Positions 277 through 41,853 are shown, counted from the stretch's first letter. The stretch: 64,000 bases of DNA from an uncultured Opitutales bacterium (GCA_964645585.1 CAZYAN010000012.1:5968-69967), one strand, 5' to 3'. Notes: generated from the letters alone by a model not told the origin. Numbers and translations are program-made.

Positions 277-1575
277 ATGTCCGCAAAGCCCGTATCCCGA
301 CGAAATTTTCTCAAAACCTCGGCCGTCGCGGCCGCCATCCCGTTTCTTCTTTCAGGACGTCTTCGCGGCGCGGACGTCTCGGCCAATGAACGGATTGCTG
401 TCGGCATAATCGGCGTCGGCAAGATGGGCGGGCTGCATCTCCGCCGGCTGCTCGAGAACGAATCGGTTCAGATTGTGGCGGTTTGCGACGTCGACACCGT
501 TCGCCGGGAGCATCATCGGGAAGCGGTCAACAGTCATTACGCGGCACAGGCCGGGCGGCAACGTTACGCGGGCTGCTCTTCGTATTCGGATTTCCGTGAC
601 CTGCTCGCGCGGGACGACATCGACGCGGTAGTCATTGCGACGCCGGATCACTGGCACGCGCTGATCGCGATCGCGGCGGCGCGCGCGGGGAAAGATATCT
701 ATTGCGAAAAGCCGCTTTGCCAATCGATCGAGGAGGCGCGGGCGATTGTGGAGGCGGTGCGAGCGGAGAATTGTGTTTTTCAAACCGGCAGTCAGCAGCG
801 TTCGACCGGACCGTTTCGCGAGGCGTGTGAACTGGTCCGGAACGGCGCGATTGGGGAAATCCGGCGGATCACGGTCGCGCTTCCGCCGGGCCTCGCCGTG
901 CCATGCGATCTGCCGGAGTCGGACCCGACGGCCGGGCTGGACTGGGACCTTTGGCTGGGACCGGCGCCGTTCCGCGGCTGGAATGAAGTTCTGAGTCCGG
1001 TCGGCGTCCATGACCATTATCCGGAATGGCGTCATTACCGGGAATATGGCGGCGGCATGATCACCGACTGGGGCGCCCATCACTTCGATATTGTGCAGTG
1101 GGCGATGGATCAGGACGAGAGCGGGCCGGTGGAGGTGATTCCGCCCGCGGTGCCCGGTTCGTCCTCGGGGGCGCGCTTTTATTACCGGAACGGGGTCGAG
1201 GTGACCCATCTGGAGGGGAACGGGATCACGTTTTTCGGGACGGATGGCGAAATTTTCGTCAACCGACGGACAATCGAAGTCAAGCCGGCGACGCTGGAGC
1301 GCGAGGCGTTTCTGGCGGAGGCGAAGATCCGGTTGCCCGCGACCGGGAGTCATGAGCGGAACTGGATCGATTGCATCCGGTCGCGGCGGAAGCCGGTGTG
1401 TCATGAGGAGATCGGTGCGCGGAGCGTGACGGTTTGCCACTTGGTGAATTTGGCGTACTGGCACAACGCGCGGTTCGGGTGGGATCCGCGGGCGAATCAG
1501 TTTTTAACCGGGAGCGGGAATCCGGACTGGCTTCGGGTGGAAAACGGTTATCGGGATCCGTGGAAACTGGCGTGA
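277..1575 (+). CDS. Gfo/Idh/MocA-family oxidoreductase with twin-arginine (Tat) signal
   Basis: 432-aa ORF. N-terminal 'SRRNFLKTSAVAAAIPF' Tat motif. Rossmann 'IAVGIIGVGKMGG'. 'DIYCEKPL' EKP motif typical of the family. Confidence 0.85.
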   Translation: MSAKPVSRRNFLKTSAVAAAIPFLLSGRLRGADVSANERIAVGIIGVGKMGGLHLRRLLENESVQIVAVCDVDTVRREHHREAVNSHYAAQAGRQRYAGCSSYSDFRDLLARDDIDAVVIATPDHWHALIAIAAARAGKDIYCEKPLCQSIEEARAIVEAVRAENCVFQTGSQQRSTGPFREACELVRNGAIGEIRRITVALPPGLAVPCDLPESDPTAGLDWDLWLGPAPFRGWNEVLSPVGVHDHYPEWRHYREYGGGMITDWGAHHFDIVQWAMDQDESGPVEVIPPAVPGSSSGARFYYRNGVEVTHLEGNGITFFGTDGEIFVNRRTIEVKPATLEREAFLAEAKIRLPATGSHERNWIDCIRSRRKPVCHEEIGARSVTVCHLVNLAYWHNARFGWDPRANQFLTGSGNPDWLRVENGYRDPWKLA

Positions 1576-1741: not shown

Positions 1742-2623
1742 ATGAAAAGAAAACTTACGCAAGGCTTTCTCTCCGCGATGTTCGCGTTTTTCGTTTCCAG
1801 TGCCTCGGTTTCGGGCGCTCTGCTTTTGGATGAGTTCCTTGCGGGTGACGGAACGGGCGGCACGTATGTAATTGATCGGGTGGATAATCAGAGCGGGGGA
1901 TTCGGCTGGGCGCCGGGATCCTCGTGGCTGATGAATGGCTCCGGTATTCTGATGGATGTGACGGAAGGAAATTATGTTTCCGTCACGAGGAACATGGGTA
2001 ACACCACCGGATCCTCCCGCGGAATGCGGCGCGAGTTTGCCGATCCCGGAATCGCAAATTTTGAGATTCGGACGAGGATCGAGTTCGCGGACCTGGCCGG
2101 GTTCGATTTGTTGAATCCGGAGGGCGCTCCGAGCACGGGCGGCGGGGGAAATATCACGGACGACGACTATTTTGCCATCTCGCCGAGAGACACCGCCGGC
2201 GGCCTCGCGAGCACGATCCACTGGTATGTTGAGGCCGTGGGCGGTTTTTGGTACGCGATGCCGGGCAGCGGGAGCAGTTACGGCACGCCGATGCCGGTCG
2301 CGCCGCTGATCGAGGGGGAAACGTATGATTTGAGCATCCGGTTCTCCGGTGAAGACACGTGGGCCTTGTCCGTTTATCTGCACGGCGAGGATGAAACGTA
2401 TGAAACCGGCTGGCTGTCTTACATCAATCCGAATAACAACACGGACGACAACATGAGCCACTGGCTGCATTACCGGTTTTACAATCAGCCGCCGGAGAGC
2501 AATTACGATATTCGAATCCACGAGATTTCAATCATCCCGGAACCGTCGGCGTATGCGCTCGGTTTCGGCGGGATTGCGCTGCTTGTCGCGGCGGTTTGGC
2601 GCTGCCGGCGGAAAGCCGCCTGA
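1742..2623 (+). CDS. Secreted PEP-CTERM-anchored protein consisting only of the ~230-aa module shared with the next three large ORFs
   Basis: ATG at 1742 gives signal peptide 'MKRKLTQGFLSAMFAFFVSSASVSGA'. C-terminus 'IPEPSAYALGFGGIALLVAAVWRCRRKAA' is PEP motif + TM helix + basic tail. The body is near-identical to the C-terminal part of 3543..5462. Confidence 0.85.
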   Translation: MKRKLTQGFLSAMFAFFVSSASVSGALLLDEFLAGDGTGGTYVIDRVDNQSGGFGWAPGSSWLMNGSGILMDVTEGNYVSVTRNMGNTTGSSRGMRREFADPGIANFEIRTRIEFADLAGFDLLNPEGAPSTGGGGNITDDDYFAISPRDTAGGLASTIHWYVEAVGGFWYAMPGSGSSYGTPMPVAPLIEGETYDLSIRFSGEDTWALSVYLHGEDETYETGWLSYINPNNNTDDNMSHWLHYRFYNQPPESNYDIRIHEISIIPEPSAYALGFGGIALLVAAVWRCRRKAA

Positions 2624-2698
2624 CTTTGGCGGGTTCGGATCGCGGTGGAGGCGTTAAGAGCGTCATCCGCTGGTGAGCTTTCGGTATTTCCGGTGTTA

Positions 2699-2720
2699 CT
2701 CCGCTGTTGCGGAGTTTCGC
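2699..2720 (+). terminator. Possible rho-independent terminator
   Basis: CTCCGC-tgtt-GCGGAG hairpin (2699-2714) followed by a T-rich 'tttcgctgttctagtttt'. It lies downstream of the PEP-CTERM gene. Confidence 0.4.
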
Positions 2721-2744
2721 TGTTCTAGTTTTCAGTTAGGTTTC

Positions 2745-3518
2745 ATGCATATGAACGAAAGCAGACATTTTTTGAAAGGGAGTTCGAAGACCGCGTTCAC
2801 CCTCATTGAGCTGCTCACGGTGATCGCGATTATCGGGATTTTGGCGGCGATCTTGATTCCGGTTGTCGGAGCGGCGCGAGACAGTGCGCGCGCTTCGCGC
2901 TGCGTCGGCAATCTGCGGGATCTGACCCTGGCGCTGAATCTGTCCCTGGAGGAGAACGACGGCCGCTTTCACGTGCACAGTGCCAGCGGGGACGGTTCCG
3001 AGCAACTGCGGCACTGGGCGGACAAATTGGAATACGAAGGAATTTTGGACAATCGCGACGTCACGATCTGCCCCTCGGCGCACCCGTATGACTGGGACAC
3101 TATGCGCAGCACGCAGCCGGGACGGCGGAACTTCCGCGTTTACGGGATGAATATGATTACCAAGCGGTCGCCGATCGTGGAAACCCCGGACTACGAAAGG
3201 GCGGGATCGGTTTACGGCGGGGGCTTTTTGCTGAATTCGCATTTGGTCGAGGAGCACTCCCGTTACTTCGTTTTCGCCGACAGCGTTTTTCCCGGAACCT
3301 ACGATCCGGAGAATTCTCCCGGAATGGGAAGCCAGCGTTACCAGATTACCGACTGGCTGCCGACGAGCCAGAACGGGATTCAAACGCGCCACAACAATCG
3401 GGCGAATCTGGCTTTTCTGGACGGCAGTGTGCGGGCGATGAGTCCCCAAGATCTTCGGCAGCTCGGCTTTTTCGGGTATGTCGATGCCGATATGAACAAT
3501 CTTTTGACACCCAACTGA
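2745..3518 (+). CDS. Prepilin-type N-terminal cleavage/methylation protein with H-X9-DG motif (pseudopilin-like)
   Basis: '[26 protein letters not shown]' class-III signal/methylation motif. C-terminal '[13 protein letters not shown]' is H-X9-DG. ATG at 2745 is preferred over the 2673 ORF start. Confidence 0.85.
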
Positions 3519-3542
3519 TCCAGGAATCTTGTCTGACTCTCC

Positions 3543-5462
3543 ATGATGAACGCAAAACTCCCTTTCTCCGTTCTGGCCTCGTCGATTTTGGTGCTGCTGA
3601 TTACCGCGCTTTCCGCGGGCGCGGTTTCCGTGACCACGGCCTTTGATGACGATCTTCCGGATCAGGTTTTGCTTTATGAAACCGATTTCAGCAGCAGCGC
3701 GGGCTGGGATCTGGGCAGCTCGGGCTATATGCTGAGCGGCCAGTTGGGGATTTTTACCGATCCTCCCGAGGGAGCCTGGCGGGGGGTCTACGCCCGATTT
3801 GCCAATGAGTCGATCGTTGGCGTGCCCGTGGAACTGGAGGTCGCCGAGGAAACGACCACCGTCGTGTATTTCAGCGAGCGTTTCGGCGGCACCGGCGAGC
3901 AGAATCAGACGACTTTTCGGCTTCAGGCGGTCGGGGACGGCGCGATGCCCAATCTGGGGGTGCGGATCGGGTCCGCCGAAGCGGAACCGATGCTCGGGAT
4001 TTCGGAGAGTGTGAATATTCTGGGCGAAGGCGATTTCCTTGCCGGTTTGCCGGACATTGCACTGAGCAGCCAGACCTTTTTGCATTACCGCCTCGTCCTG
4101 CACGTGGTTTCGGCGACCGAAACGCTCACGGTTCGTTTCGATCAATACGATCACGGATCAAGTTCGTGGAATGAGGTTGGATCGGTGGAAATTCCGGACT
4201 ACCGCGATCCCTCGCGACTCGGGAGCAGCCAGCTCGACCGCGTCAGCGTGCTCTTCCGAAGCGCGGGCGAGGCGGTGGGCGATCTCGCGATCACGCAAAC
4301 CGCGCCTCCGGGGCCGCCGCTTTTCGCGACGTGGCGGGAAAAGCATTTTACGGAGGCGGAACTCGCGGATGAATCGATCAGCGGGCCGTACGCCGATCCG
4401 GATGGCGACGGTCTTGCGAATCTTGTTGAATATGCGCTGGACGGAGATCCGCGGACGCCGGATTTGGACATCGCTCCCCGGCCGGGAATCTTTTCCGGCG
4501 ATGAAGGCGATTTCCTGACGCTCGGTTTCGTGCCGGCTACGCCGTTGCCGAGCGATCTCCAGTACATCGTCGAAACGTCCGGAGATCTGATCACCTGGGC
4601 TGAAGAGGCGGAACTATTCGGTTTTCTCTTCGACAGCTTCGAAGCGGGGGATGGGACTGGGGGCACGTATGAAACAGGTTCTCTGGACAACAAAACTGGC
4701 GGGTTTGGATGGGTGCCGGGATCTTCCTGGCTGATGAACGGCGCCGGGATCGGATTCAACGTGAATCCGAACCACTACGTTTCCATCAACAGGAATTTGT
4801 CGAACACGACCTCAAGCACCCGCGGTGCGCGGCGCGAGTATGCGGATCCGCTGATTTCGAATTACGAGATCCGCATCTGTGTTGAGCTGGCGGATCTGGC
4901 GGGAATCGACCTGCTGAATCCGGAGGGCGCCCCGAGCACGGGCGGCGGGGGAAATATCACGGATGACGACTATTTTGCGATCTCGCCGAGAAGCACCGCC
5001 GGCGGCCTCGGGAGCACGTTCCACTGGTATGTCGAGGCCGTGGGCGGCTTTTGGTACGCGATGCCGGGCAGCGGATCGTCTTACGGCACGCCTTTGCAAG
5101 TGGCGCCGCTGATTGAGGGAGAAACCTATGATCTGACGATCGCGTTTTCCGGCGAAAACACGTGGTCGCTGAAGGTCTATCTTCAGGATGCGGATGAAAC
5201 GTATGAGTCGGGCTGGCTTCCGTACATCAATCCGAACAATAACACCGACGAAAATCTGGCCCGCTGGGTTCATTTCCGGGTGCAGAATCGGCCGCCGGAG
5301 GTCAATTTTGATATCCGCTTGCACCATGTGTTTATCCCGGATCCATCCGATTCCGCCGATGCGCCGGAGGGCCTGGTGAGATTTCGTGACACGGTATCGA
5401 GCGAGGCAGAGGGGCGCCGGTTTATGAGGCTTCGGGTGGAACTGGACGAGCAAGGTTTGTGA
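3543..5462 (+). CDS. Secreted protein: unknown N-terminal region + DPDGDG Ca-loop-like motif + shared ~230-aa module + 'RRFMRLRVE' terminus
   Basis: Signal peptide 'MMNAKLPFSVLASSILVLLITALSAGA'. Motifs 'ADPDGDGLANLVEYALDGDP', 'YIVETSGDLITW' and 'GRRFMRLRVE'. Module at about nt 4632-5333. Confidence 0.85.
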   Translation: MMNAKLPFSVLASSILVLLITALSAGAVSVTTAFDDDLPDQVLLYETDFSSSAGWDLGSSGYMLSGQLGIFTDPPEGAWRGVYARFANESIVGVPVELEVAEETTTVVYFSERFGGTGEQNQTTFRLQAVGDGAMPNLGVRIGSAEAEPMLGISESVNILGEGDFLAGLPDIALSSQTFLHYRLVLHVVSATETLTVRFDQYDHGSSSWNEVGSVEIPDYRDPSRLGSSQLDRVSVLFRSAGEAVGDLAITQTAPPGPPLFATWREKHFTEAELADESISGPYADPDGDGLANLVEYALDGDPRTPDLDIAPRPGIFSGDEGDFLTLGFVPATPLPSDLQYIVETSGDLITWAEEAELFGFLFDSFEAGDGTGGTYETGSLDNKTGGFGWVPGSSWLMNGAGIGFNVNPNHYVSINRNLSNTTSSTRGARREYADPLISNYEIRICVELADLAGIDLLNPEGAPSTGGGGNITDDDYFAISPRSTAGGLGSTFHWYVEAVGGFWYAMPGSGSSYGTPLQVAPLIEGETYDLTIAFSGENTWSLKVYLQDADETYESGWLPYINPNNNTDENLARWVHFRVQNRPPEVNFDIRLHHVFIPDPSDSADAPEGLVRFRDTVSSEAEGRRFMRLRVELDEQGL

Positions 5463-5507
5463 GTCGCGCGAGAACCGGGTGACTCGGGTCCCGAAGGTTT
5501 GGCTTTC

Positions 5508-5536
5508 GGAAACGGGCTGCCCGTTTCCTCTTCTTT
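5508..5536 (+). terminator. Rho-independent terminator candidate
   Basis: Perfect 9-bp stem GGAAACGGG-ctg-CCCGTTTCC (5508-5528) followed by 'tcttcttt'. It starts 46 nt after the stop of 3543..5462. Confidence 0.6.
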
Positions 5537-5545
5537 AGAGTCTCT

Positions 5546-8500
5546 ATGAGTTTGAGCGGATTCGGGGGCCGCGCGTGTGCGGCGGGCCTTTTTCTTTCGG
5601 CGCTGTGCAGCGCGGGAAATTTGAGCGGCCAGGCGGGCGGCGGATTCGTGACGATTTCTCCGGGCGTCCGAATCGTGCTTCCAGCGAATTTGCCCGCTCC
5701 GGTCGTTCGGGCGACGGAGGATTTGCGGCGGGACTTGGCGAAGGTGCTCGGGGGAGAGTCGCCGGTGGCGGCGAAGGAAGGTTTCCCGTTTTCCGAAGAG
5801 ACGGCGCTGATCGTGGCCGGGCCGGAGACCGACTGGCCAGAGCTGGAGTTGTCGGATGAAGTGACCGGGCGGGAAGCGCACGCGGTGTACGTGAGGAAAA
5901 TCGGTGGAATGCCGCATGTCATTCTCCACGGGAGCGACATGCGCGGCATGATTTACGCGATCTACACCTTTTCGGAAGACGTGCTTGGCGTTCCTCCCTT
6001 GTGGCTTTGGGCTTCGTGGGAGCCGGAGGTGAGCGGATCCCTTGAACTGCCGGCTGATTTTCACCGCCATTTTCCCTCTCCGCAAGTTCGGTGGCGCGGC
6101 TGGTATCCGAATGGGCAAACGATGCTCAGTCCGTGGAGATCCCGTTCGCCGGAGCATCACGACGCGTACGCGGAAACGATGCTTCGTTTGAAGCTGAATC
6201 TCCTCGATACGCTTTCGATTCTCGACGGCGGATTTCGCGACCCGTACAAGCTGCACCCGAACGCCGACATGGCGAAACGTTACGGGCTCGTGCTGACGAC
6301 CACGCACACCGCGCCGCTTGGCGCCCATCCGGAGGAGACGCGCTGGAAGAATTTTTGGCGGCGGGTCAAGGAAACCGACCCGCCGCCGCGTTCGATTTAT
6401 GATCTCGAATCGCTGCGGACCTACTGGGCGTATCATATTGAAGCGGCGATGCATCACGGACTGGAGATGATCTGGCCGATCGGGTTCCGGGGATCGGGAG
6501 ACATTCCGTTTTGGGAGGATGCTTACGAGGATCCGGGGACGGATGAAGAGCGCGCGGCGGTGATCGAGAGAATGCTGACGGCCCAGGTGGAACTGCTGCG
6601 GACGCTGACCGGGGAGGAGGCGCCGGATATGCGGATCACGCTTTACAACGAGAAATCGGATTTCGTGGCGGCGGGGCTTCTCGACCTTCCTGATGAGCCG
6701 GGGCTGGTTTACAATTTCGTCGCGGCGCGCCGGGATCACTATCCGCCGCCCGATCTGCTCGGATTTGATTTCGAACCGCGGCATCTCGCGGGTTATTATT
6801 TCAATTACTCCTTCGTTTCAACCGGATCGTTCATTGCCCAGGGAGAGGGGCCGTGGAAAATGGAGTGGAACTTCCGGACGGCCGACGAGGCGAGTCCGAA
6901 CGGGCTCGTTCTAGCTGTCGTCAACGCCGGGAACATCCGGGAACATGTCATGGAGCTGGCCGCGAATGCGGCGATGATGCGGGATTTCGGCGCTTACGAC
7001 AGCGACGCGTTTCTCCTGAAGTTTTGCGAGACGTACTTTGGGGAAGAACAAGCGGAGGAGATCGCACGATTGTATCGAGATTTTTACGACGGCTATTGGG
7101 TACAGCGGGAACCGGATCTGGACGGCTTTGCGAGACAGTATCTGTTTCAAGACCTGCGGCTTCATCGGGCGATGCGGATTCTCATTCCCTTGCTGCGGTC
7201 GCGGACTCCCGATATGAATCCGTTTTGGGAAGGCGACTGGTTCCGGATCGATCCGGCGGCGAGCGGGACGGATAACGAAATCGCGGCGGTGATGGCCGGG
7301 ATGGAGAAGGCGATCGCCACGTTGGAATCCGTTGTGGAAAAGGCCGACGCGCTGCTGCCGGGAATCGATCCGTCGAAGCGGGCGTTTTTCAACGACAACC
7401 TCCGCGTTCAGGCGTATTTCCTGAAATACGCGAGCGAAGTCGTTTATCATTTGAGCCAGGCGATGCGGGCGCTGCACGATGGGGACGACCTTTGGCCGCC
7501 GGTCGATCGGGCGGACCGGGCGGCGGCGGCAATGATCGCCATACTTGCGGAGACCGAACACGGCATTTTTGACGACTGGTATGCCCCCGACACGCATTTC
7601 CACTTCCACGACCGGAAGGCCGAGATCGCGGAGCTTCTCGCGGGGATCGCGCCGGCCGGTTTCAACGATTTCTCGCGGTGGCAGCGAACGCATTTCACTG
7701 CGGAGCAGCTTTTGAAAGAAGAAGTGGGCGGGCCGCTTGCGGATCCGGATGGTGATGGCCTGGCGAATCTGCTCGAATATGCATTGGGCGGAAATCCGGG
7801 GGCACCCGATGCCGAAGTTTTATCGCGGTTTTCGGGCGCCGGCGCCGGGGAGAACCGGTTTTTGACGCTCGGTTTCACGCCTCCCGCGCCGCTCCCGGGA
7901 GATGTTCGCTACGTGGTGGAGACCTCGGACGATCTGGTCGGCTGGACTGCTGACGCTAAACAGCTGGCCGCTGTTCTGGACGATTTCCGAGCAGGTGGCG
8001 GAGGCGGCGCATCCTATTCGACCGGCGATATCAACGGCCAGCGGGGCGGCACGGGCTGGGCGGAAGGTTCCGAGTGGAGTCTTTCCGGATCCGGCGGGAA
8101 CCGGCGGCATATCGCGCCCGGAGGCTGGCTGGAGTTCAGCAAGTTCAACACCGCCCACGAAAACAATCTGATCAATCTCGCCCGCGAGTATCCGGCCGCG
8201 GCCGACGCTTCGCTCGAGATTCAGATCGAGGTCGAACTCGTCAACCTCGCCGGCATTCGTCTTCTCGAAGGCGGTCCGACCCGCTCGGGCGCGGATCACG
8301 CGACGGATCTTTTTGCGATTTTCGACGGAGGCGGGAGGAAAGGCGCGGTCGGGAGCGACGTCCCTTGGTACGTCGAGGCCGCGGGCGGTTTCTGGCACGC
8401 CTTGCCCGGCTCGGCGGGTGGCGGCAATTACGGGGAGCCTGTTCGCTTGGCGCCGCTAGTCGAAGGGGAAACGTATCGGATCACGGTGGCGATGCTCGAG

Positions 8501-8800
8501 GATGAGCGATGGGAGGTTACGATCCGGGTGATGAATTCTGGAGAAATTCACAAGTCAGGCCCGCTGCCTTTTATCGGCGAAAACCGGGGCGTGAAAAACT
8601 GGATCAACATCCGCGCCGGGTACTCTGACACGGCTGGAAGCGATTACGAGATTCGCCTTCACCGAATCGCGGTGGTCAAGCCGTTTGCCTTTGCGGACCG
8701 ACTGGCACCGGGAGAACCGGTGCTGTTTCGCGACAGATCTCCGATTCGCGACGGGGCACGGCGATTTATGCGCCTGCGTATTGAAAGGAATTCTTCTTAA
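5546..8800 (+). CDS. Secreted glycoside hydrolase, GH115-like (alpha-glucuronidase family) N-terminal part, with C-terminal shared module
   Basis: Signal peptide. 'HGSDMRGMIYAIYTFSEDVLGVPPLWLWASW' resembles the GH115 'GSDxRGxxYGxYxLSExxGVSPWxWW' block, followed by 'VRWRGWY'. C-terminal 'ADPDGDGLANLLEYALGGNP', module at about nt 7975-8690, and 'RRFMRLRIE'. Confidence 0.7.
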   Translation: MSLSGFGGRACAAGLFLSALCSAGNLSGQAGGGFVTISPGVRIVLPANLPAPVVRATEDLRRDLAKVLGGESPVAAKEGFPFSEETALIVAGPETDWPELELSDEVTGREAHAVYVRKIGGMPHVILHGSDMRGMIYAIYTFSEDVLGVPPLWLWASWEPEVSGSLELPADFHRHFPSPQVRWRGWYPNGQTMLSPWRSRSPEHHDAYAETMLRLKLNLLDTLSILDGGFRDPYKLHPNADMAKRYGLVLTTTHTAPLGAHPEETRWKNFWRRVKETDPPPRSIYDLESLRTYWAYHIEAAMHHGLEMIWPIGFRGSGDIPFWEDAYEDPGTDEERAAVIERMLTAQVELLRTLTGEEAPDMRITLYNEKSDFVAAGLLDLPDEPGLVYNFVAARRDHYPPPDLLGFDFEPRHLAGYYFNYSFVSTGSFIAQGEGPWKMEWNFRTADEASPNGLVLAVVNAGNIREHVMELAANAAMMRDFGAYDSDAFLLKFCETYFGEEQAEEIARLYRDFYDGYWVQREPDLDGFARQYLFQDLRLHRAMRILIPLLRSRTPDMNPFWEGDWFRIDPAASGTDNEIAAVMAGMEKAIATLESVVEKADALLPGIDPSKRAFFNDNLRVQAYFLKYASEVVYHLSQAMRALHDGDDLWPPVDRADRAAAAMIAILAETEHGIFDDWYAPDTHFHFHDRKAEIAELLAGIAPAGFNDFSRWQRTHFTAEQLLKEEVGGPLADPDGDGLANLLEYALGGNPGAPDAEVLSRFSGAGAGENRFLTLGFTPPAPLPGDVRYVVETSDDLVGWTADAKQLAAVLDDFRAGGGGGASYSTGDINGQRGGTGWAEGSEWSLSGSGGNRRHIAPGGWLEFSKFNTAHENNLINLAREYPAAADASLEIQIEVELVNLAGIRLLEGGPTRSGADHATDLFAIFDGGGRKGAVGSDVPWYVEAAGGFWHALPGSAGGGNYGEPVRLAPLVEGETYRITVAMLEDERWEVTIRVMNSGEIHKSGPLPFIGENRGVKNWINIRAGYSDTAGSDYEIRLHRIAVVKPFAFADRLAPGEPVLFRDRSPIRDGARRFMRLRIERNSS

Positions 8801-8806
8801 CGACGA

Positions 8807-11800
8807 ATGAACACGAATCGAGACGAATTGCTGATGACGAAGCTTGCCGCGGCGACCTGCGCGGTGTTCCTGATGCTGAGCACCGCGGCTAGCGGTGGAA
8901 CCTTTTTGGAGGAATGGACGGGAGGCGCGGATACGGAGAATCTGGTCGTTCTGGTGGCGGACGGTCAGCCGGCGGCGACCGTTGTTTTGCCGGAAAATCC
9001 GACGGGAGAGCACGAACGTGCGGCGAACTTGCTCGTCGATTCCGTTGAGCAAATGAGCGGCGCCCGGCTTTCCGTTGTTTCCGATCCCGGTTTGGTGGAA
9101 ACAGGAAACCGGATCTGGATCGGTCTGCGCCCGGAGTTGACGCAGTATTTTCCGGAGGCGGATCTCGGGTTCACAAAGCCGGAGGAGCTGGTTATGATCG
9201 CGAAACCGCGTGAGCTGCTGCTGGCGGGCCGCGACGAGACGGTCGACGGCGCTCCGGTTCAGGCGGGAACGCTGCTTTCGGTTTTGACGTTTTTGCAGGA
9301 TCGGCTCGGTGTACGCTGGCTCTGGCCAGGTGAGAACGGTACGGATTATCTCACGTCGGAAAACATCGCGTTCGCGCCGTTCGAATACCGGTATCATCCG
9401 CCGCTGACGCACCGGAATCTTCGCGGAGTGAATTTCGCGAATCGCTGGAACGCCGTCTTGCGCGAGGAGGACCGGCGGAAAGCGCCGAACAAAGAGGCGT
9501 TGATCGAAAAATACGCCGGCGGTTACGACGCGATGCCGGATTTAATGCGGGAAAAAGACCGGGAAGCGCAGGCGTGGTTTAACAAGCAGCGGGTTGGCGC
9601 CCAGAACGCCCGGGTACTCGGCGATTCGTTCAATCAGGCGGCGCGGGGAAGTCTGCCGTATGAGGCGCAGCATTCGTTCGGCGACTGGTATGACCGGTTC
9701 GCCAAGGATCATCCGGAGTGGTTTGCGCTGCAGCCGGACGGAACCCGGGTCAGCGAGCAGGAGGAGCCGTATCCGCAAAAAGATCGCGTAAAGCTCTGCA
9801 TTTCGAATCCGGAAGTCGCCGCCCAATGGCTGGACGATGCGGAGGCGTATTTTTCGGCGAATCCGAACGCGACGATGATCAGCGCCTCGCCGAACGACGG
9901 CGGCTGGCAAGGGTATTGCGTTTGCGAAGTCTGCAAAAGCTGGGACGCGCCGGATGCGCCGATGCTGCCGCGCACGCTGCTTTGGCGCGGGCACCAGGAG
10001 GAGCATCGCGCGCTCACGGATCGTTATGTGAAATTTTGGAATATCCTGGCCCGCGGGCTGAAGGAGCGTTTTCCGGATCGGGATTTGAAGATCGGGGTTT
10101 GGGCGTATTGCGCCTATGAGCCGGCGCCGGTTCGGGAAATGCTGGAGGATAATATCATCCCCGGCTATGTCGGGATTCGGAATCTCGAAGTCGGTCAAAA
10201 TTCCCGGGAACGGATCGAGAACAACGTCGCCGCCTGGCGCGGCTGGGCGGAGCACGGGGCATCGGGAATCGTCTGGCGGCCGAATACATTGAAGCGGAAC
10301 GCGGGTTTGCCTTATGTCTACATGCACCGGCACGGCGATGTCTGGAATGAACTGGCGAAAAACAAGATCGTCGGATTCGATGTCGACAGCATCCACCATC
10401 ACTGGTCGACGCAGGCGCCGCAGTTTTACGTGATGGCGCAGCTCGCGTGGGATCCGACGCGGAAGGCGCGGGAGATCCTGGACGACTTTTACCGGCGTGC
10501 CTTCGGGGAGGCGGCGGCTCGGTATGTGGACGCCTACTTTTCGGTTTTCGAGCAGCTTTATTACAAGATCGATGAAACGCACCAGGACTGGGGCAATCCC
10601 GCGTGGCACTTTTATTCAGGGCTTCCGCGCGCGTATCGCGAGATGAAACTTGCGCCGACGCTGGGACGGTCGATGGCGGATCACGCGTGGGGCGATTACC
10701 TGTGGGAAAAACCGGACGCGACGTTTACCGCCGAGGAGCTGGCCGCGGAATATCTGCGGCGGGCGGAAGCGGCGGTTGCAGACGGACCGGAGATCTACCG
10801 AAAGCGCGTGGCGTTCTTGCGCACGGGTTTTGAGTTGATCGATCCGCAGCTCGATATGATTGAGGTGATGAATGAAATCCGCGCCGGGACGGACGACATG
10901 GATGCGGTGATGAGCCAAGCGTATTCGGCGGCCGAACGCCGGGAAAAGGTGCTCATCGAAAATATCCGCAATTTCGCTTTCGGTTATCCGCAGCTGCTGA
11001 TGCATTACCGCTACATCATGCCGCAGCGCCTCGGGCCGCCGGAGAACCTCGAATCCGCGGCACCTCGCGGTTTCGGTTCGTGGCAGGCGGAGCATTTCAG
11101 TCCGGCGGAGCTGGCGGATGAATCGGTCAGCGGCCCGTATGCCGATCCCGATGGTGACGGGCTGGCCAATCTGCTCGAATACGCTCTCGGCGGAGATCCG
11201 CGATCGGCTTCTCCGGAAATTGCCCCGCGGACGGCGCTTGCGGAGGCGGAGGGAGGGCGTTTTCTGGTGTCGGGTTTTACTCGCCCGCATCCTTTTCCGA
11301 CCGACATCGACTACCGTGTCGAGACTTCGGACGACCTGGTTACATGGTTGGAAGAAGCCGAAGAAATGTCCGTGCTGATCGACGGATTCACGGCTGGCGA
11401 CGGCAGCGGGGGCAGTTACTCCGCTGGTGATATTCATGGCCAAGCGGGCGGTTTCGGTTGGGCGCCTGACTCTGTCTGGACCATGTCCGGGCCGGGCGGG
11501 CATCGGCGGCACATCGTACCCGGAGGCGGCCTGGAGTTTTCGAAGTTTTCCCTGAGCGGGCAAAACAATCTCATCAATCTCGCGCGCGAGCACCGGGCGG
11601 CGCACGACCCGCCGTTTGAGGTGCGGATCGATGTTGAACTTCTCGATCTCACCGGGATCCGGCTTTTGGAAGGTGAGCCGTCGCGCTCCGGCGCGAATCA
11701 CGCAGACGATCTTTTTGCGATCTTTGACGGGGGAGGAAAGCTCGGCCCGGTCACTTCGGATTCTCGGTGGTATTTGGAGGCTGCCGCCGGTCACTGGCAC

Positions 11801-12202
11801 GCGTTGCCCGGATCGGAAGCCGGCGGCAACTACGGAGAGCCGGTTCCGCTCGCGCCGCTGCTTGAGAACGAACGTTACGAGATCGCGGTTTCGATTCTGC
11901 CGGAGGCGAAGTGGCGGGTCTCCATTTTCATGGTGAACGCTGGACAGACCTACAAGTCGGGACCTATGCCGCTGATCGGGCGGAACGAAACCGTCTCGAA
12001 CTGGTTCAACCTGCGCGTCGGCGTTACGGATACGGCGGGCTCCGATTACAGGATTCGCCTGAATCGGCTCACGATCGGAAATCCGTTTGACTCAGCGGAG
12101 GGTTTCTTTGCTGGCGAACCCCGGTTTTTTCGGGACCGTCTGACGGATGGCGAGTCGGATCGGCGGTTTATGCGGCTTCGCGTCGAGCGGTCTGGAGGAT
12201 AA
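8807..12202 (+). CDS. Secreted DUF4838-like (GH20/GH67-like fold) protein with C-terminal shared module
   Basis: Signal peptide (alternative start M10 at 8834). 'SASPNDGGWQGYCVCEVCKSWD' matches the CxCxxC block I associate with DUF4838 proteins. C-terminal 'ADPDGDGLANLLEYALGGDP', module at about nt 11375-12090, and 'RRFMRLRVE'. The start is 6 nt after the previous stop. Confidence 0.7.
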   Translation: MNTNRDELLMTKLAAATCAVFLMLSTAASGGTFLEEWTGGADTENLVVLVADGQPAATVVLPENPTGEHERAANLLVDSVEQMSGARLSVVSDPGLVETGNRIWIGLRPELTQYFPEADLGFTKPEELVMIAKPRELLLAGRDETVDGAPVQAGTLLSVLTFLQDRLGVRWLWPGENGTDYLTSENIAFAPFEYRYHPPLTHRNLRGVNFANRWNAVLREEDRRKAPNKEALIEKYAGGYDAMPDLMREKDREAQAWFNKQRVGAQNARVLGDSFNQAARGSLPYEAQHSFGDWYDRFAKDHPEWFALQPDGTRVSEQEEPYPQKDRVKLCISNPEVAAQWLDDAEAYFSANPNATMISASPNDGGWQGYCVCEVCKSWDAPDAPMLPRTLLWRGHQEEHRALTDRYVKFWNILARGLKERFPDRDLKIGVWAYCAYEPAPVREMLEDNIIPGYVGIRNLEVGQNSRERIENNVAAWRGWAEHGASGIVWRPNTLKRNAGLPYVYMHRHGDVWNELAKNKIVGFDVDSIHHHWSTQAPQFYVMAQLAWDPTRKAREILDDFYRRAFGEAAARYVDAYFSVFEQLYYKIDETHQDWGNPAWHFYSGLPRAYREMKLAPTLGRSMADHAWGDYLWEKPDATFTAEELAAEYLRRAEAAVADGPEIYRKRVAFLRTGFELIDPQLDMIEVMNEIRAGTDDMDAVMSQAYSAAERREKVLIENIRNFAFGYPQLLMHYRYIMPQRLGPPENLESAAPRGFGSWQAEHFSPAELADESVSGPYADPDGDGLANLLEYALGGDPRSASPEIAPRTALAEAEGGRFLVSGFTRPHPFPTDIDYRVETSDDLVTWLEEAEEMSVLIDGFTAGDGSGGSYSAGDIHGQAGGFGWAPDSVWTMSGPGGHRRHIVPGGGLEFSKFSLSGQNNLINLAREHRAAHDPPFEVRIDVELLDLTGIRLLEGEPSRSGANHADDLFAIFDGGGKLGPVTSDSRWYLEAAAGHWHALPGSEAGGNYGEPVPLAPLLENERYEIAVSILPEAKWRVSIFMVNAGQTYKSGPMPLIGRNETVSNWFNLRVGVTDTAGSDYRIRLNRLTIGNPFDSAEGFFAGEPRFFRDRLTDGESDRRFMRLRVERSGG

Positions 12203-19964: not shown

Positions 19965-22900
19965 ATGCGATTCCTCCGATTCGGCTCATACTTCTTTGCG
20001 ATCGGTCTGGCGGCCGCGGCCGTTGCCGAGGAGCCGGAGATTTATTTCTCCGATAATTTCGATACCGATACATCCGGCAATTGGACGATTCTTTCCGCAA
20101 AGCCTGCCGGCGATGACTGGAGCGCCGTATTCAGCTATGATTACAGTGCCGATGGAATTCCGCCCGCGCCCAACGCATCCGGCGGCACGACCAGCGGCGT
20201 CAAGCTGAGCCTCAATCACCAGTCCGGCGACACCTACGGCGTGCATCTTGTGCCGGCTGGGCAGCATTTCTCCGGCGATTATGTCCTGAAGCTCGATCTC
20301 TGGATCAACTACCCGGGCCCGCTCAGCACCGGCGGCCCCGGATCGACCGAGTTCGCCGGTTTCGGTATCGGGGTTAACGGGACGAATCTCAGCCTGTTCG
20401 GGAATCCCGGCGCCGATGGAGCCTGGTTCGCCGTCGATGGCGACGGCGGAAACGGCCAGGATTACCGGGCGTACAAGGGACACGAATACGAACATCCCTC
20501 GAGCGGACAGTATGCCGCCGGCACGACCTCCAGCGCGCGCGGCGCGAGTCACAGTTATTATGAAAACGCCTTTCCCGGAGGCCAGACCGCGCCGCCGCTC
20601 CAGCAATCGCTTTATCCTTCGCAGACTGGAAGCACCCGTGCCGGAAGGATCGGTTTTGCGTGGCGCGAAGTGGAAATCCAAGTCCGCGGAGGAACGGTCC
20701 GCTGGCTGATCGACGGAGTTTTGATCGCACAGCTCGCCCAAGATCGCGGCTCCGGAAGTTTCCAGACGGCCGGAAATATTGCCCTGAGTTACGTGGATCA
20801 TAATCCGTCGATTTCCGACCCGGACGTCGGCTATGTGCTGTTCGACAACGTGCGGGTGGAGGAGTTGCTGCCGGAACCGGTGCCGGGGAACATTCCGCTC
20901 GTTGGCCATATCAACGCGTTTGGTCAGCAATACGGCGGGGTCGGCGGCGACGGCGATATCGCGGTGACCGGGACTTTTCTGAACAACAACACGAACGGTG
21001 TTGGCATTTACGATATTTCCGATCCCGCGAACCCCGTCCTGGCGGCCGATTATAATCCGCTCGGCGGAGAAACGCGATTCGAGGATGTCTGGGTTCGCGA
21101 CGGAATCGGCTACTTCGGATGCTGGCGCGTGAGCGGCGGGGGCGGTCAGAACGGTGTCCATATTGTCGATCTTTCCGACCCGTACAACCCTGTTTGGCGC
21201 GCGAGTATCGATCCCTCAATCAACGGCCACCCGCAGGTGCATACGCTCTTTCTGGACGGTGATTATTTATACACGGCTGCACATCGCCCATCGGTGATTG
21301 GCCGGACGGTGAAGGTGTTTAATATCAGCGATCCGTACCATCCGGTCTTCGTGCGCGACATTCCGACGACTGAGACCGACAAGGTGCACCAGATTACCGT
21401 GAAGAACGGCCGGCTGTTTACCTCCGGTTGGAGCGGACGAACCGATATTTTTGATGTGAGCGATGTGGAGAATGCGGCGGTTTATCTCGGCACGGCGGAG
21501 TCGGGTCCGAACTCGCACAGCAGCTGGCCGACGGAGGACGGCAACGTCCTCATCGTCTGCCGCGAGATCGCCGGGGGCGACGTCCGTTTCTTCGACATCA
21601 GCGATCCGTCGAATCCGCGGCTGATGCTGATTCTCGATGACACAAACGTCGGGATCGGCGATTTTATTCCCCACAACCCGGTCGTGGTCGGGGATCTGCT
21701 GTTTATTTCCTGGTATGAAAATGGGCTGCAGGTGTTCGATATCAGCGATCCGATGCGGCCGGTGCGTGTTGGTTATTATGCAACCGGCGGCTCCGGACTG
21801 ACCTGGGACGGCAATTGGGGCGTGTATCCATTAAATGGACTCGACCGGGTATTGCTGAGCGATATGTCGGAGGGACTATTCATCGTCGACGCGTCTAACG
21901 TGCTGGAAGATACGGACAACTATCCGCCGCTGCTTGTCGAAATGCCTGTAGATCAGGAGCTCGCTGAAGGTTCGAATGCTGTTTTCTCGGTCACCGTGAC
22001 TGGTTCGGAGCCCATGACCTATCAGTGGCGCCGCAACGGGTCGCCGATGCCCGGTGCGACAAGCGCTGTTCTGGAAATAACCGATATTGGTCTGTCCGAT
22101 GGCGGCAATTATTCTGTGACCGTGAGCAATGCGGCCGGGCAAATCACGTCGACCGCCGGATCCTTGACCGTGATTCCCGCGGGCGAGGCGACGCCGCCGC
22201 AAATTCACTCGGAGCCGCAAAGCCAGGTGGCCACACCAGGTCAGATCGTGCAGTTCTCGGTCACGGCGAGCGGCACGCCGCAATTGCGCTACCAATGGTA
22301 TTACAACGGGGAAGTGATCGAAGGCGCGGAGGCGAGTTCGCTGTCGGTCGGACCGGTGCTGCTGACGCATGAGGGAAATTATTCGGTGCGAATTTCCAAC
22401 AGTGCCGGCGAAGTGCTCAGCGCGGAGGCGGAACTGACAATCGACGACTCTCTCTTCTTTTACGACATCCGCGTGGCGGCCGGTGCCTACAGTGCCGTGG
22501 TCAGCTGGAAAAGCCGCGTGCCGGCGACCGGTGTCATTGAGCACGGGGCGCCCCACCATTTTGAGACCGAGACGGCCATTGTGCCGATGCATGCCGAATT
22601 TGACTTTACGGCGCCGGCGACCTCGCGCGTCACGGCGGTTCATTCGACGATGATCGGCGGGCTGCCGCCGGCGTCTGTCTGGAGTTTTCGGATTGTCGGC
22701 TATACCGATAACGGCAATACCCGGCACGAGTCGCCGGAGTTTCTCTTCTGGACGGAACCGAGTGCAAAAGGTGACGAGGCCGAGCTGCCGGACTGGTGGC
22801 TGGAGCATTTTTTTGAGGACGCTGGTGAAATCGATCCGGAGGTCGATCACGATGGCGACGGCTGGAGCGTTTGGGCGGAATTTCTAAGCGGAACCTCGCC

Positions 22901-41716: not shown

Positions 41717-41853
41717 GTGACTGGTCGGGCCGTCTAGCGTCGTCGCAACCTTGACTGATGTTTGCGGACGCGCGCGTTTCGAGCCCGCCCGGGCCGACAG
41801 GAATGCTCGCTCTCGTTTGGTTCGAGCAAAAAGCTTTTTTTCGAAAGACCTCT

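What the first reader, a model, noticed from the sequence alone, without database searches (positions are those of the whole stretch)
1742..12202. Four adjacent secreted proteins share an uncharacterised ~230-aa module, apparently nested inside their C-terminal domain in three of them
Seen directly:
- ORFs 1742..2623, 3543..5462, 5546..8800 and 8807..12202 each carry one copy of the segment, at about nt 1829-2530, 4632-5333, 7975-8690 and 11375-12090.
- The shared blocks are 'F.AGDG.GG.Y', 'GGFGW.P.S.W', 'DL.G..LL..E..P', 'D..FAI', 'WY(V/L)EA.GG.W.A.PGS', 'G.P...APL.E.E.Y' and 'Y.IR(I/L)'.
- In the three large proteins the segment sits between the strand 'Y.VETS.DL..W' and the terminal 'RRFMRLR(V/I)E'.
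- In other proteins of this window (19965..23153, 28048..29559) those two elements are only ~25-35 aa apart and appear to belong to one small C-terminal domain. That implies a domain-in-domain insertion.
- The first ORF is the module alone with a signal peptide and a PEP-CTERM anchor.
- The fusion partners look like GH115 and DUF4838 glycan-active enzymes.
Inference: this is a candidate new carbohydrate-binding or surface-tethering module, with a free cell-anchored copy encoded in the same locus.
Basis: partly seen in the sequence, partly recalled or inferred. Interest (0 to 1): 0.75.

Follow-up and report, generated by a model that had tools for sequence, protein, structure and literature searches.

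The report
Lectin-like module nested in C-terminal domain
Four secreted proteins in one sugar-degrading gene cluster share a rare, unclassified ~237-aa domain with a plant-lectin-like fold: one copy stands alone on a cell-surface anchor, and three sit inside a loop of the small C-terminal domain of larger proteins, two of them glycan-cutting enzymes, so it is a candidate new glycan-binding family rather than a new kind of biology.

Summary
ORFs A (1742-2623), B (3543-5462), C (5546-8800) and D (8807-12202) each carry one copy of a 236-239-aa module, and the window holds no other copy.

No Pfam, NCBIfam or PDB sequence family covers the module. An exhaustive HMMER search of 1.84 billion cluster representatives found only 12 true clusters, most of them signal peptide + module + PEP-CTERM.

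AlphaFold2 models it confidently (pLDDT 91.9). Foldseek places it in the concanavalin-A-like lectin/glucanase jelly-roll superfamily, with legume lectins, VIP36 and ERGIC-53 as best hits (E ~1e-7, TM ~0.5).

The nested-insertion reading holds at sequence level:
- An HMM built only from uninterrupted host domains matches B, C and D as two collinear pieces either side of the module.
- A paralogue in a related MAG has B's N-domain and host domain with only ~27 aa where B has ~280.
- Orthologues of C and D in that MAG end exactly where the ~380-aa host+module cassette begins.
- B's module groups with free copy A, not with its orthologue's module, so the module moves as a unit.

The AlphaFold test of packing was inconclusive. 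Glycan binding is inferred, not shown. This is a new family of a known fold in an unusual nested arrangement.

The parts
277..1575 (+). TAT-signal Gfo/Idh/MocA oxidoreductase, first gene of the same-strand cluster (context)
   Evidence: Pfam GFO_IDH_MocA 3.5e-24 and TAT_signal. A GFO_IDH_MocA gene also sits in the related locus L007.
1742..2623 (+). Protein A: signal peptide + module + PEP-CTERM anchor (free copy)
   Evidence: ORF. N-terminus MKRKLTQGFLSAMFAFFVSSASVSG. PEP-CTERM Pfam hit at aa 265-290.
1820..2536 (+). Module copy 1 (type I), aa 27-265 of A
   Evidence: Alignments A2 and A4. AF2 pLDDT 91.9. Foldseek hits to L-type lectins.
2534..2611 (+). PEP-CTERM sorting signal of A (IPEPS, hydrophobic helix, RCRRK)
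   Evidence: PF07589 21.8 bits, cutoff 20.7. TIGR02595 13.2 bits, below its cutoff of 16.
2673..3518 (+). Prepilin-type N-methyl / H-X9-DG (DUF1559-like) protein between A and B
   Evidence: Pfam N_methyl and SBP_bac_10; NCBIfam IV_pilin_GFxxxE and HX9DG. Orthologues at 77% identity in L001 and 66% in L007.
3543..5462 (+). Protein B: signal peptide + unclassified ~225-aa N-domain + host C-terminal domain with nested module
   Evidence: ORF. No Pfam hit. Orthologue P0004 46% identical.
3621..4301 (+). B N-terminal domain of unknown family
   Evidence: No Pfam or PDB hit. Unrelated to the module by hhalign. The same domain precedes an uninterrupted host domain in L007 GH115_1077.
4323..4598 (+). 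Host domain, N-terminal piece in B (W..HF, DPDGDG Ca-loop-like motif, helix, strands up to Y.VETS.DL..W)
   Evidence: Host HMM positions 2-85, 56 bits. AF2 helices and strands.
4623..5339 (+). Module copy 2 (type I), nested
   Evidence: 72% identical to A. Foldseek on the B model again hits L-type lectins.
5340..5459 (+). Host domain, C-terminal piece in B (LVRFRDTV ... RRFMRLRVE)
   Evidence: Host HMM positions 95-116, 11.1 bits. 0 of 300 shuffled tails reach the score.
5546..8800 (+). Protein C: GH115 enzyme + host::module cassette
   Evidence: Pfam GH115 1.5e-41. aa 6-698 are 63% identical to the 705-aa GH115 of L007, which ends there.
7670..7945 (+). Host domain N-piece in C
   Evidence: Host HMM positions 3-89.
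7970..8677 (+). Module copy 3 (type II), nested
8678..8797 (+). Host domain C-piece in C
   Evidence: Host HMM positions 92-116, 8.2 bits.
8807..12202 (+). Protein D: DUF4838 (GH163/GH185-type catalytic domain) enzyme + host::module cassette
   Evidence: Pfam DUF4838 1.6e-37. aa 13-746 are 68% identical to the 741-aa DUF4838 protein of L007, which ends there. DUF4838 is the catalytic domain of GH163 and GH185 (PMC10570127).
11072..11347 (+). Host domain N-piece in D
   Evidence: Host HMM positions 2-88.
11372..12079 (+). Module copy 4 (type II), nested
12080..12199 (+). Host domain C-piece in D
   Evidence: Host HMM positions 96-116, 8.4 bits.
22782..23150 (+). Uninterrupted host domain at the C-terminus of protein E (19944-23153; Ig and LVIVD repeats)
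28051..28413 (-). Uninterrupted host domain at the C-terminus of protein F (28048-29601; PQQ-like beta-propeller)
56724..57119 (-). Uninterrupted host domain at the C-terminus of protein G (56721-60551; no Pfam hit)

Best explanation
The shared segment is a previously unclassified sequence family of the concanavalin-A-like (L-type lectin/glucanase) beta-jelly-roll fold. Its usual form is a small secreted protein of about 290 aa: signal peptide, module, PEP-CTERM anchor. Protein A has this form.

In this Opitutales-like lineage the module has been inserted into a loop of a small C-terminal domain. That host domain ends many large secreted proteins of these bacteria. It consists of W..HF, a DPDGDG calcium-loop-like motif, a helix, then beta strands ending in RFFRL.V at the extreme C-terminus. 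The insertion lies between the 'Y.VETS.DL..W' strand and the last two strands, so the host's terminal strand stays at the C-terminus.

The resulting ~380-aa host::module cassette was then copied onto the C-termini of a GH115 enzyme (C) and a DUF4838/GH163-185-type enzyme (D). The module inside B was later exchanged with the type carried by the neighbouring free copy A.

Most likely function (inferred): a non-catalytic glycan-binding module. It would hold the two hydrolases and protein B on the same, probably uronic-acid-bearing, polysaccharide that the anchored copy A captures at the cell surface. That would make it a functional analogue of CBMs and surface glycan-binding proteins.

Shown: the repeat, its rarity, its fold class, the split host domain, the cassette gain and the module swap. 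Inferred: ligand binding, surface location and the role of the host domain.

My sub-confidences: fold class 0.9, nested insertion 0.85, glycan binding 0.55.
For: Repeat. Four copies at E 1e-119 to 1e-123, and no others in the window.

No known family. Pfam, NCBIfam and PDB sequence searches give nothing on the module.

Rarity.
- 14 hits among 1.84e9 representatives. 12 are real and 2 are low-complexity repeats.
- One genome among 185,579 species representatives.
- None in the metagenome contig scan.

Architecture. Seven of 14 aligned members carry PEP-CTERM, and the standalone ~290-aa form dominates.

Fold. AF2 on the 13-sequence alignment gives pLDDT 91.9 and pTM 0.90, all-beta. Foldseek against the PDB gives legume lectins at E 7e-8 to 1e-6, probability 1.0, TM ~0.49. 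Weaker hits include VIP36, ERGIC-53, Emp47p and TtX122A. The result is reproduced with B's nested copy. The viral library gives ConA-like phage tail proteins, TM up to 0.57.

Nesting.
- A host HMM built from 13 uninterrupted domains matches B, C, D and P0004 at positions 2-88 before the module and 95-116 after it.
- Excising the module gives an end-to-end match and adds 9-13 bits.
- Only 0-1 of 300 shuffled tails reach that score.
- Among 136 window ORF C-termini, the B, C and D tails rank directly after E, F and G.
- L007 GH115_1077 aa 718-1077 is 43% identical to B aa 31-352. It then has only ~27 aa before 'GSRFMRLRVRLAN'.

Cassette gain. The L007 orthologues of C (63% identical) and D (68%) stop where the cassette starts. 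The C and D cores are 24% identical over 169 aa, but their cassettes are 58% identical over 374 aa.

Module swap. B versus P0004 is 36% in the module against 53-56% in the flanks. In the NJ tree, (A,B) has 100% support and (C,D,P0004) has 100%.

Context. The genes form a same-strand cluster with gaps of 6-83 nt. The module recurs next to GH115 in three genomes: the window, L007 and L011. Remote relatives sit near alginate-lyase/heparinase and GH38C-like genes.
Against: - No binding assay exists, and I had no coordinates to map conserved residues onto a surface.
- TM scores to lectins are moderate (~0.5), and sequence identity is 10-14%.
- The L-type lectin metal and sugar-binding residues were not checked.
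- Catalytic jelly rolls (PL7, PL20, PL28, GH16) also appear among the structural hits.
- The AF2 model of the nested construct gives low confidence for both linkers (<50) and for the terminal strand (~57-63), with pTM 0.68. Physical packing of the two host pieces is therefore not demonstrated.
- P0012 has module + 'RRFLRIR' tail without the host N-piece. The nesting model does not explain this.
- No exosortase gene is in the window.
Confidence: 0.6

Rival explanations
1. The module is catalytic: a beta-jelly-roll polysaccharide lyase or hydrolase (like PL7, PL20, PL28 or GH16), or a 3-keto-glycoside-cleaving domain working with the neighbouring Gfo/Idh/MocA oxidoreductase. C and D would then be bifunctional enzymes and A a surface-anchored enzyme.
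For: - Foldseek also hits alginate lyase AlyV (7w16), ulvan lyase (6d2c), glucuronan lyase (2zzj), vAL-1 (3a0n) and GH16 (3dgt) at E 1e-5 to 5e-5.
- The loci are rich in enzymes for uronic-acid glycans: GH115, PL8, alginate-lyase/heparinase.
- Invariant or near-invariant polar residues lie in or next to predicted strands (Y16, R71, Y169, R219), with Q24 in a loop. That pattern suits a cleft.
- Oxidoreductase and AP_endonuc_2 genes recur nearby.
Against: - Lectins outrank every enzyme hit by about 2 log units of E-value, in two independent models.
- The acidic residues of 'WY.EA' and 'EGE.Y' are not conserved in the remote clade P0009-P0012.
- By inspection, the PL7 signature blocks (RxELR, QIH, YFKAGxYxQ, recalled from the literature) are absent.
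- There is no Pfam hit to DUF1080 or any lyase or GH family at E<=1.
Confidence: 0.15
2. The module is a protein-protein assembly device. Enzyme-borne copies would pair with the PEP-CTERM-anchored free copy by lectin-like sheet-to-sheet oligomerisation. This would dock B, C and D on the cell surface as a cohesin-dockerin-like multi-enzyme complex.
For: - A free anchored copy is encoded in the same cluster as three enzyme-borne copies, and the arrangement recurs in L001.
- A and B stay similar (72%), with a 186-nt tract at 87-95% nt identity that suggests ongoing gene conversion.
- Legume lectins are obligate oligomers (established knowledge).
Against: - The C and D modules are only 35% identical to A.
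- Most family members are standalone, on contigs where no fused partner was seen.
- L007 has a fused copy but no free copy within 22 kb.
- No oligomer prediction was possible with these tools.
Confidence: 0.1
3. There is no true nesting. The terminal '...RRFMRLRVE' would be an autonomous C-terminal motif, such as a sorting signal, that merely follows the module. The host N-piece would be a separate upstream domain.
For: - P0012 carries module + 'GNERRFLRIRSEF' without any host N-piece.
- In the AF2 model the tail is low-confidence and is separated from the module by a disordered linker.
- In standalone proteins the same position after the module is occupied by another sorting signal, PEP-CTERM.
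Against: - In 13 or more uninterrupted examples, N-piece and tail always occur together, 25-45 aa apart, as one domain.
- The closest uninserted paralogue has the same RFMRLRV tail directly after the N-piece.
- DSSP assigns the tail as a paired strand in the model.
- The P0012 tail match is weak, at 5.8 bits.
Confidence: 0.08

Closest known systems
L-type (legume) lectins and animal relatives VIP36, ERGIC-53 and Emp47p (ConA-like lectin/glucanase superfamily)
   Same: A beta-jelly roll of about 230-240 aa. These are the best Foldseek matches for two independent models (E 5e-8 to 1e-6, probability 1.0, TM 0.45-0.53). They are secreted or luminal glycan-recognition domains.
   Different: Sequence identity is 10-14%. 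There is no Pfam Lectin_legB or other clan hit at E<=1. The metal and sugar-binding residues were not verified. The distribution is bacterial (PVC group), with a PEP-CTERM anchor or nesting in another domain.
Beta-jelly-roll carbohydrate-binding modules and LamG / Laminin_G_3 domains appended to CAZymes
   Same: A non-catalytic-looking ConA-like module at the C-terminal side of glycoside hydrolases (GH115 and DUF4838-type). It also occurs as a separate surface protein in the same locus.
   Different: It matches no described family at sequence level. It is not simply appended but inserted inside another small domain. The family is extremely small: 12 clusters in 1.84e9 representatives.
PEP-CTERM / exosortase-sorted surface proteins (Haft et al. 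2006; Pfam PF07589, TIGR02595)
   Same: A and most relatives end in the PEP motif, a hydrophobic helix and an Arg cluster.
   Different: The passenger domain is not one of the named PEP-CTERM families; NCBIfam hits touched only the tail and were far below cutoff. The fused copies have replaced PEP-CTERM with the host-domain tail.
TtX122A (PDB 8q28/8q29), a domain of unknown function from Teredinibacter turnerae TERTU_3803 (PMC10916295)
   Same: A bacterial ConA-like domain of unknown function within a large extracellular protein linked to polysaccharide breakdown. Foldseek E ~1e-5.
   Different: A weaker match than the lectins, with no sequence similarity and a different (redox protein) context.
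Jelly-roll polysaccharide lyases and hydrolases (PL7 AlyV 7w16, PL28 6d2c, PL20 2zzj, GH16 3dgt)
   Same: The same superfold, in loci for acidic polysaccharides.
   Different: E-values are about two orders weaker than for the lectins. The signature catalytic motifs were not seen, and candidate acidic residues are not conserved across the family.
Known domain-in-domain insertions in CAZymes (for example PA14 inserted in GH3 beta-glucosidases; from general knowledge)
   Same: A beta-sandwich binding-type module inserted in a loop of another domain. This is made possible by the module's adjacent N- and C-terminal strands.
   Different: Here the host is not the catalytic domain. It is a ~120-aa C-terminal accessory domain, and the composite behaves as a mobile cassette.

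Membership tests
ConA-like lectin/glucanase fold superfamily | Two-sheet beta-jelly roll of about 200-250 aa, detectable by structure comparison | tested here: met
   AF2 pLDDT 91.9, pTM 0.90, 15 strands. 122 PDB matches at E<=0.001, the top ones legume lectins at TM ~0.49, probability 1.0. Reproduced with the nested B copy and in BFVD.
Any Pfam/NCBIfam family of that clan (Lectin_legB, Laminin_G_3, DUF1080, PL7 and others) | Profile-HMM match at or near the gathering threshold | tested here: not met
   No hit at E<=1 on the module in any of the 14 family members scanned against Pfam (B, C and D also as whole proteins). No module hit in NCBIfam for A, B, C or D. PDB sequence profile search: nothing better than E 0.76.
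L-type lectin (functional) | Conserved Ca2+/Mn2+ ligands and the Asp/Asn/Gly-Arg sugar-binding triad in the loops above the concave sheet | not testable with these tools
   No model coordinates or residue-level structural alignment were available. Needs superposition on, for example, 3zyr or 2duo.
PL7-type alginate lyase | Signature blocks R(S/T/N)E(L/V)R, Q(I/V)H and YFKAG(V/I)YNQ (recalled from the literature) | tested here: not met
   By inspection of alignments A3 and A4, only a loose 'RRE(Y/F)' is present, with no QIH or YFKAG block. This is inspection, not a profile test.
PEP-CTERM sorting signal (protein A) | C-terminal PEP motif + TM helix + basic cluster, with an HMM score above cutoff | tested here: met
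   PF07589 21.8 bits against cutoff 20.7, aa 265-290. The sequence is IPEPSAYALGFGGIALLVAAVWRCRRKAA. The TIGR02595 score of 13.2 is below its cutoff of 16, so the match is borderline.
PEP-CTERM sorting system | Cognate exosortase (EpsH/Xrt) encoded in the genome | not testable with these tools
   None among the window ORFs scanned. The rest of the genome is not available.
GH115 (protein C) | Pfam Glyco_hydro_115 above gathering score | tested here: met
   143.4 bits against cutoff 27, aa 178-515. 63% identical to a 705-aa GH115 in L007.
DUF4838 / GH163-GH185-type hydrolase (protein D) | Pfam PF16126 above gathering score | tested here: met
   129.8 bits against cutoff 26.6, aa 178-578. PF16126 is the catalytic domain of GH163 and GH185 (PMC10570127). 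Assignment to a GH subfamily was not tested.
Host C-terminal domain = one domain split by the insert | Collinear match of both flanks to a profile built only from uninterrupted domains, plus an uninserted homologue | tested here: met
   HMM positions 2-88 before the module and 95-116 after it. +9-13 bits on excision, with 0-1 of 300 shuffles reaching that. Uninserted paralogue L007 GH115_1077.
Host C-terminal domain = one domain split by the insert | The two flanks pack into one beta-sheet in a 3-D model | tested here: inconclusive
   In the AF2 model of B aa 254-639, strands 60-93 and 374-381 form. However, pLDDT is 57-70 there, both linkers are below 50, pTM is 0.68, and no coordinates were available to check contacts.
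Named families for the host domain (TSP3_bac, Amuc_1099_fam, dockerin/EF-hand) | HMM score above cutoff over the domain | tested here: not met
   Amuc_1099_fam 22.1 bits against cutoff 50, covering only the W..HF..DxDGDG part. TSP3_bac E 0.0015 in one member. PDB: calmodulin and dockerin Ca-loops at E 0.4-1.2.

The most novel reading that the evidence does not exclude
The ~120-aa host domain is a PVC-specific C-terminal sorting or surface-retention domain whose last strand must remain at the extreme C-terminus. That would explain why the lectin-like module was inserted into an internal loop rather than appended.

The anchored free copy A and the enzyme-borne copies would then form a surface glycan-capture and degradation assembly, a Verrucomicrobial counterpart of SGBP/PUL machinery or of a cellulosome. 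They would do so by binding the same polysaccharide or by lectin-like oligomerisation. The host::module cassette would be a mobile unit that recruits new enzymes to this assembly.
Probability: 0.12. Interest if true: 0.75.

Novelty: new member of a known kind. Interest (0 to 1): 0.45.

Why it matters
If binding is confirmed, this would found a new CBM or lectin family linked to GH115 and GH163/185-type enzymes in Verrucomicrobiota. That phylum's glycan-capture machinery is much less understood than the Bacteroidota Sus-like systems.

The locus also gives a clean natural example of domain-in-domain insertion. Inserted and uninserted paralogues, cassette spread to two unrelated enzymes, and module exchange between a free and a nested copy can all be read from a few genomes.

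Keeping the host's terminal strand at the C-terminus hints that this widespread but unnamed PVC C-terminal domain has an end-dependent role. That hypothesis is testable.

Tried and rejected
- **Word-indexed homologue searches.** The exhaustive search was needed.
- **Metagenome contig scan.** The second found 64 pattern matches, but none was a relative.
- **Genome scan.** One MAG only.
- **PDB sequence searches.** Module: none. Host: only Ca-loop noise. B N-domain: none.
- **B N-domain versus module.** hhalign shows no relation (probability 0.3), so B does not carry a second cryptic copy.
- **Source contig of protein A.** Not on record.
- **First nested-structure job.** MAFFT placed the penultimate strand of the short host domains inside the module columns, which may have weakened the model of the tail.
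- **Amuc_1099 pilus-like family as an identity for the host domain.** Rejected: sub-threshold and partial.
- **PL7-like catalytic reading.** Considered and down-weighted (see rival explanations).
- **A/B DNA identity tract.** Examined as gene conversion. Support is only modest: synonymous codon identity 76% against 56%, post hoc p = 0.01.

Full report
**1. Observation**

The window has about 59% GC. It carries a same-strand gene cluster:
- a TAT-signal Gfo/Idh/MocA oxidoreductase, 277-1575
- A, 1742-2623
- a prepilin-type N-methyl/H-X9-DG protein, 2673-3518
- B, 3543-5462
- C, 5546-8800
- D, 8807-12202

The intergenic gaps from A to D are 49, 24, 83 and 6 nt. All four proteins begin with plausible Sec signal peptides (read by eye, no predictor was available).

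Each protein contains one copy of a 236-239-aa segment:

| Protein | aa | nt |
|---|---|---|
| A | 27-265 | 1820-2536 |
| B | 361-599 | 4623-5339 |
| C | 809-1044 | 7970-8677 |
| D | 856-1091 | 11372-12079 |

A profile of the four copies scores E 1e-119 to 1e-123 on each and finds no fifth copy in six frames. Pfam confirms PEP-CTERM at the end of A, GH115 in C and DUF4838 in D. DUF4838 is the catalytic domain of families GH163 and GH185 (PMC10570127).

**2. Is the module a known family?**

No Pfam or NCBIfam model touches it at E<=1 in any of the 14 family members scanned. Profile searches of PDB sequences give nothing meaningful.

An exhaustive HMMER search of 1.84 billion 50%-identity cluster representatives gave only 14 hits at E<=1e-3. 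Two of these (P0013, P0014) are low-complexity repeats, leaving 12 clusters including A and C themselves. A scan of one genome for each of 185,579 species found a single MAG, an uncultured Opitutales bacterium. A metagenome-contig scan found none. The family is real but very small in public data.

Most members are about 290 aa: signal peptide + module + PEP-CTERM. This covers P0005, P0007, P0008 and the remote clade P0009-P0011. P0006 ends without an anchor, and P0002 has a PEP-CTERM-like tail but is called from an internal start. The standalone, anchored form, as in A, is therefore the default architecture. Fusions occur only in this lineage and its relatives: B, C, D, P0004 and the truncated L001 gene.

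**3. Fold**

AlphaFold2 on a 13-sequence alignment gives pLDDT 91.9 and pTM 0.90, with 15 beta strands.

Foldseek against the PDB returns 122 matches at E<=0.001:
- It is led by legume lectins (3zyr, 5eyx, 2gme and others; E 7e-8 to 1e-6, probability 1.0, TM ~0.49).
- These are followed by a phage esterase (6yp6), PL7 alginate lyase, TtX122A, GH16, botulinum HCN domains, ERGIC-53, Emp47p, and ulvan and glucuronan lyases.

The independently modelled nested copy of B gives the same ranking, adding VIP36. The viral library gives ConA-like phage tail proteins.

The module is therefore a new sequence family of the ConA-like lectin/glucanase jelly roll, closest in shape to L-type lectins. This removes any claim to a new fold but not the claim to a new family.

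**4. Is it nested in the C-terminal domain?**

The host is a ~120-aa domain at the extreme C-terminus of E (19944-23153), F (28048-29601, minus strand) and G (56721-60551, minus strand) in this window. It also ends several proteins in the related loci L001 and L007 and in metagenomic fragments.

Its layout is W..HF, a DPDGDG Ca-loop-like motif plus helix, three strands ending in Y.(V/L)E.S.DL..W, then 25-45 aa and a final (R/G)FFR(L/V).(V/I). No named family covers it. There are only sub-threshold TSP3_bac and Amuc_1099 matches to the Ca-loop part, and calmodulin or dockerin noise in the PDB.

Three sequence tests support a split domain.

(a) An HMM built only from 13 uninterrupted domains matches B, C, D and P0004 as two collinear pieces: positions 2-88 before the module and 95-116 after it. 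Deleting the module in silico gives an end-to-end match worth 9-13 bits more than the N-piece alone. Only 0-1 of 300 composition-preserving shuffles of the tail reach that score. Among 136 ORF C-termini in the window, the B, C and D tails rank immediately after E, F and G.

(b) In MAG GCA_003558065.1 (locus L007), a 1077-aa GH115 protein ends with a region 43% identical to B aa 31-352, which is B's N-domain plus the host N-piece. It then has only ~27 aa before 'GSRFMRLRVRLAN'. B and its orthologue P0004 have about 280 aa (module plus linkers) in the same place. This is a natural uninserted counterpart.

(c) The module evolves separately from its flanks. B versus P0004 is 53% in the N-domain, 56% in the host N-piece and 55% in the tail, but only 36% in the module. 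B's module is 72% identical to free copy A. NJ bootstraps are 100% for (A,B) and 100% for (C,D,P0004).

The structural test was weaker. The AF2 model of B aa 254-639 (pLDDT 83, pTM 0.68) folds the module and the host helices well. It forms host strands 60-93 and a terminal strand 374-381. However, confidence there is 57-70, both linkers are below 50, and I could not inspect contacts. Established knowledge that the ConA-like fold has adjacent N- and C-terminal strands makes a loop insertion geometrically easy. That is a supporting argument rather than a test.

**5. History of the cassette**

The L007 orthologues of C (705 aa, 63% identical to C aa 6-698) and of D (741 aa, 68% identical to D aa 13-746) end exactly where the host::module cassette begins. 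The C and D catalytic bodies are barely related (24% over 169 aa), yet their cassettes are 58% identical over 374 aa.

The simplest reading has three steps:
1. A B/P0004-type protein already had the type II module nested in its host domain.
2. The ~380-aa composite was copied onto C and D in the window's lineage.
3. B's module was later replaced by the type I module of its neighbour A. The L001 B-like gene is also type I.

A 186-nt tract (2090-2275 versus 4893-5078) at 87-95% nt identity, with raised synonymous identity (76% against 56%, post hoc p = 0.01), hints at continuing A/B gene conversion.

**6. Function and mechanism (inferred)**

- **Context.** This is polysaccharide utilisation: GH115 and a GH163/185-type enzyme here, with GH9, a sulfatase-GDSL fusion, a BNR protein and ThuA elsewhere in the window.
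- **L007.** It has two GH115 genes, PL8, LacI, DUF4838 and Gfo/Idh/MocA.
- **L011.** A standalone module sits directly upstream of GH115, Big_5 and CBM96 genes.
- **Remote relatives.** They lie near alginate-lyase/heparinase and GH38C-like genes.
- **Pilin-like gene.** It is conserved in the three closest loci, at 77% and 66% identity.

The best-supported model is a non-catalytic lectin/CBM-like module. It would bind the target polysaccharide, probably uronic-acid-bearing given the recurrent GH115 association and the conserved Arg and aromatic residues. One copy is anchored on the cell through PEP-CTERM, and further copies sit on B and on two hydrolases.

The main rivals are a catalytic jelly roll (about 0.15), a lectin-like docking system between free and enzyme-borne copies (about 0.10), and an autonomous C-terminal motif instead of true nesting (about 0.08). 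The last is prompted by P0012, which has module + 'RRFLRIR' tail without the host N-piece. That observation remains unexplained.

**7. Verdict**

- The nested-insertion reading is supported by comparative sequence evidence but not yet by structure.
- The module is an unclassified, very rare family of a familiar fold.
- Glycan binding is plausible but untested.

I rate this as a new member of a known kind, with an unusual nested and mobile architecture. Interest is moderate.

Noticed in passing
window 22782-23150 (+), 28051-28413 (-), 56724-57119 (-); also L001 and L007: An unnamed ~120-aa C-terminal domain (W..HF, DPDGDG Ca-loop-like motif, helix, beta strands, terminal RFFRL.V) ends at least six large secreted proteins in this 64-kb window, counting B, C and D. 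Their N-terminal parts are unrelated: Ig/LVIVD, a PQQ propeller, GH115, DUF4838, and unknown. No Pfam or NCBIfam model covers it. Its strict position at the extreme C-terminus suggests a sorting or retention role.
   Followed up: partly
window 3621-4301 (+); L007 GH115_1077 aa ~718-945: B's ~225-aa N-terminal domain has no Pfam or PDB match and is unrelated to the module. It recurs fused after a GH115 catalytic body in L007, so it is a second unclassified accessory module in the same system.
   Followed up: partly
window 2090-2275 vs 4893-5078: This tract is 87-95% identical at nucleotide level between A and B, within otherwise 52-83% identical module DNA. Synonymous codon identity is 76% against 56% elsewhere (post hoc p = 0.01). 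It is a possible recent gene-conversion tract covering the low-pLDDT loop 'DLLNPEGAPSTGGGGNITDDDYFAISPR'.
   Followed up: partly
window 5331-5345 (B aa 597-601) vs 2531-2545 (A aa 264-268): Directly after its module, B reads 'IPDPS' where A has the PEP-CTERM motif 'IPEPS'. This may be a remnant of a PEP-CTERM gene as the donor of the insert, or it may be chance. C, D and P0004 lack it.
   Followed up: no
L003 8001-8885 (P0012) and 8990-9427: A remote family member has module + 'GNERRFLRIRSEF' tail with no host N-piece and no PEP-CTERM. A second, tandem module gene follows it, cut by the contig end. The nesting model does not explain this.
   Followed up: partly
window 2673-3518 (+): A prepilin-type N-methyl / H-X9-DG protein sits between A and B. 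It is conserved at 77% (L001) and 66% (L007) in the related loci, next to GH115 or the module genes. Its role in the cluster is unknown.
   Followed up: partly
window 43798-46053 (+): A sulfatase (Sulfatase + SGSH_C) is fused to a C-terminal GDSL esterase domain, next to a GH9 cellulase-like gene (41758-43719). This looks like another glycan-processing cluster.
   Followed up: no
window 23333-24925 (+): An unusual fusion: biotin/lipoyl + E3-binding domains precede a FabH-like 3-oxoacyl-ACP synthase III.
   Followed up: no
window 277-1575 (+), 46162-48513 (-), 48544-50178 (-): TAT-signal Gfo/Idh/MocA oxidoreductases occur with a xylose-isomerase-like TIM barrel and a ThuA-like protein. AP_endonuc_2 or Gfo/Idh/MocA genes also neighbour module genes in L003, L004 and L007. 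This may link to oxidative glycoside-cleavage pathways.
   Followed up: no
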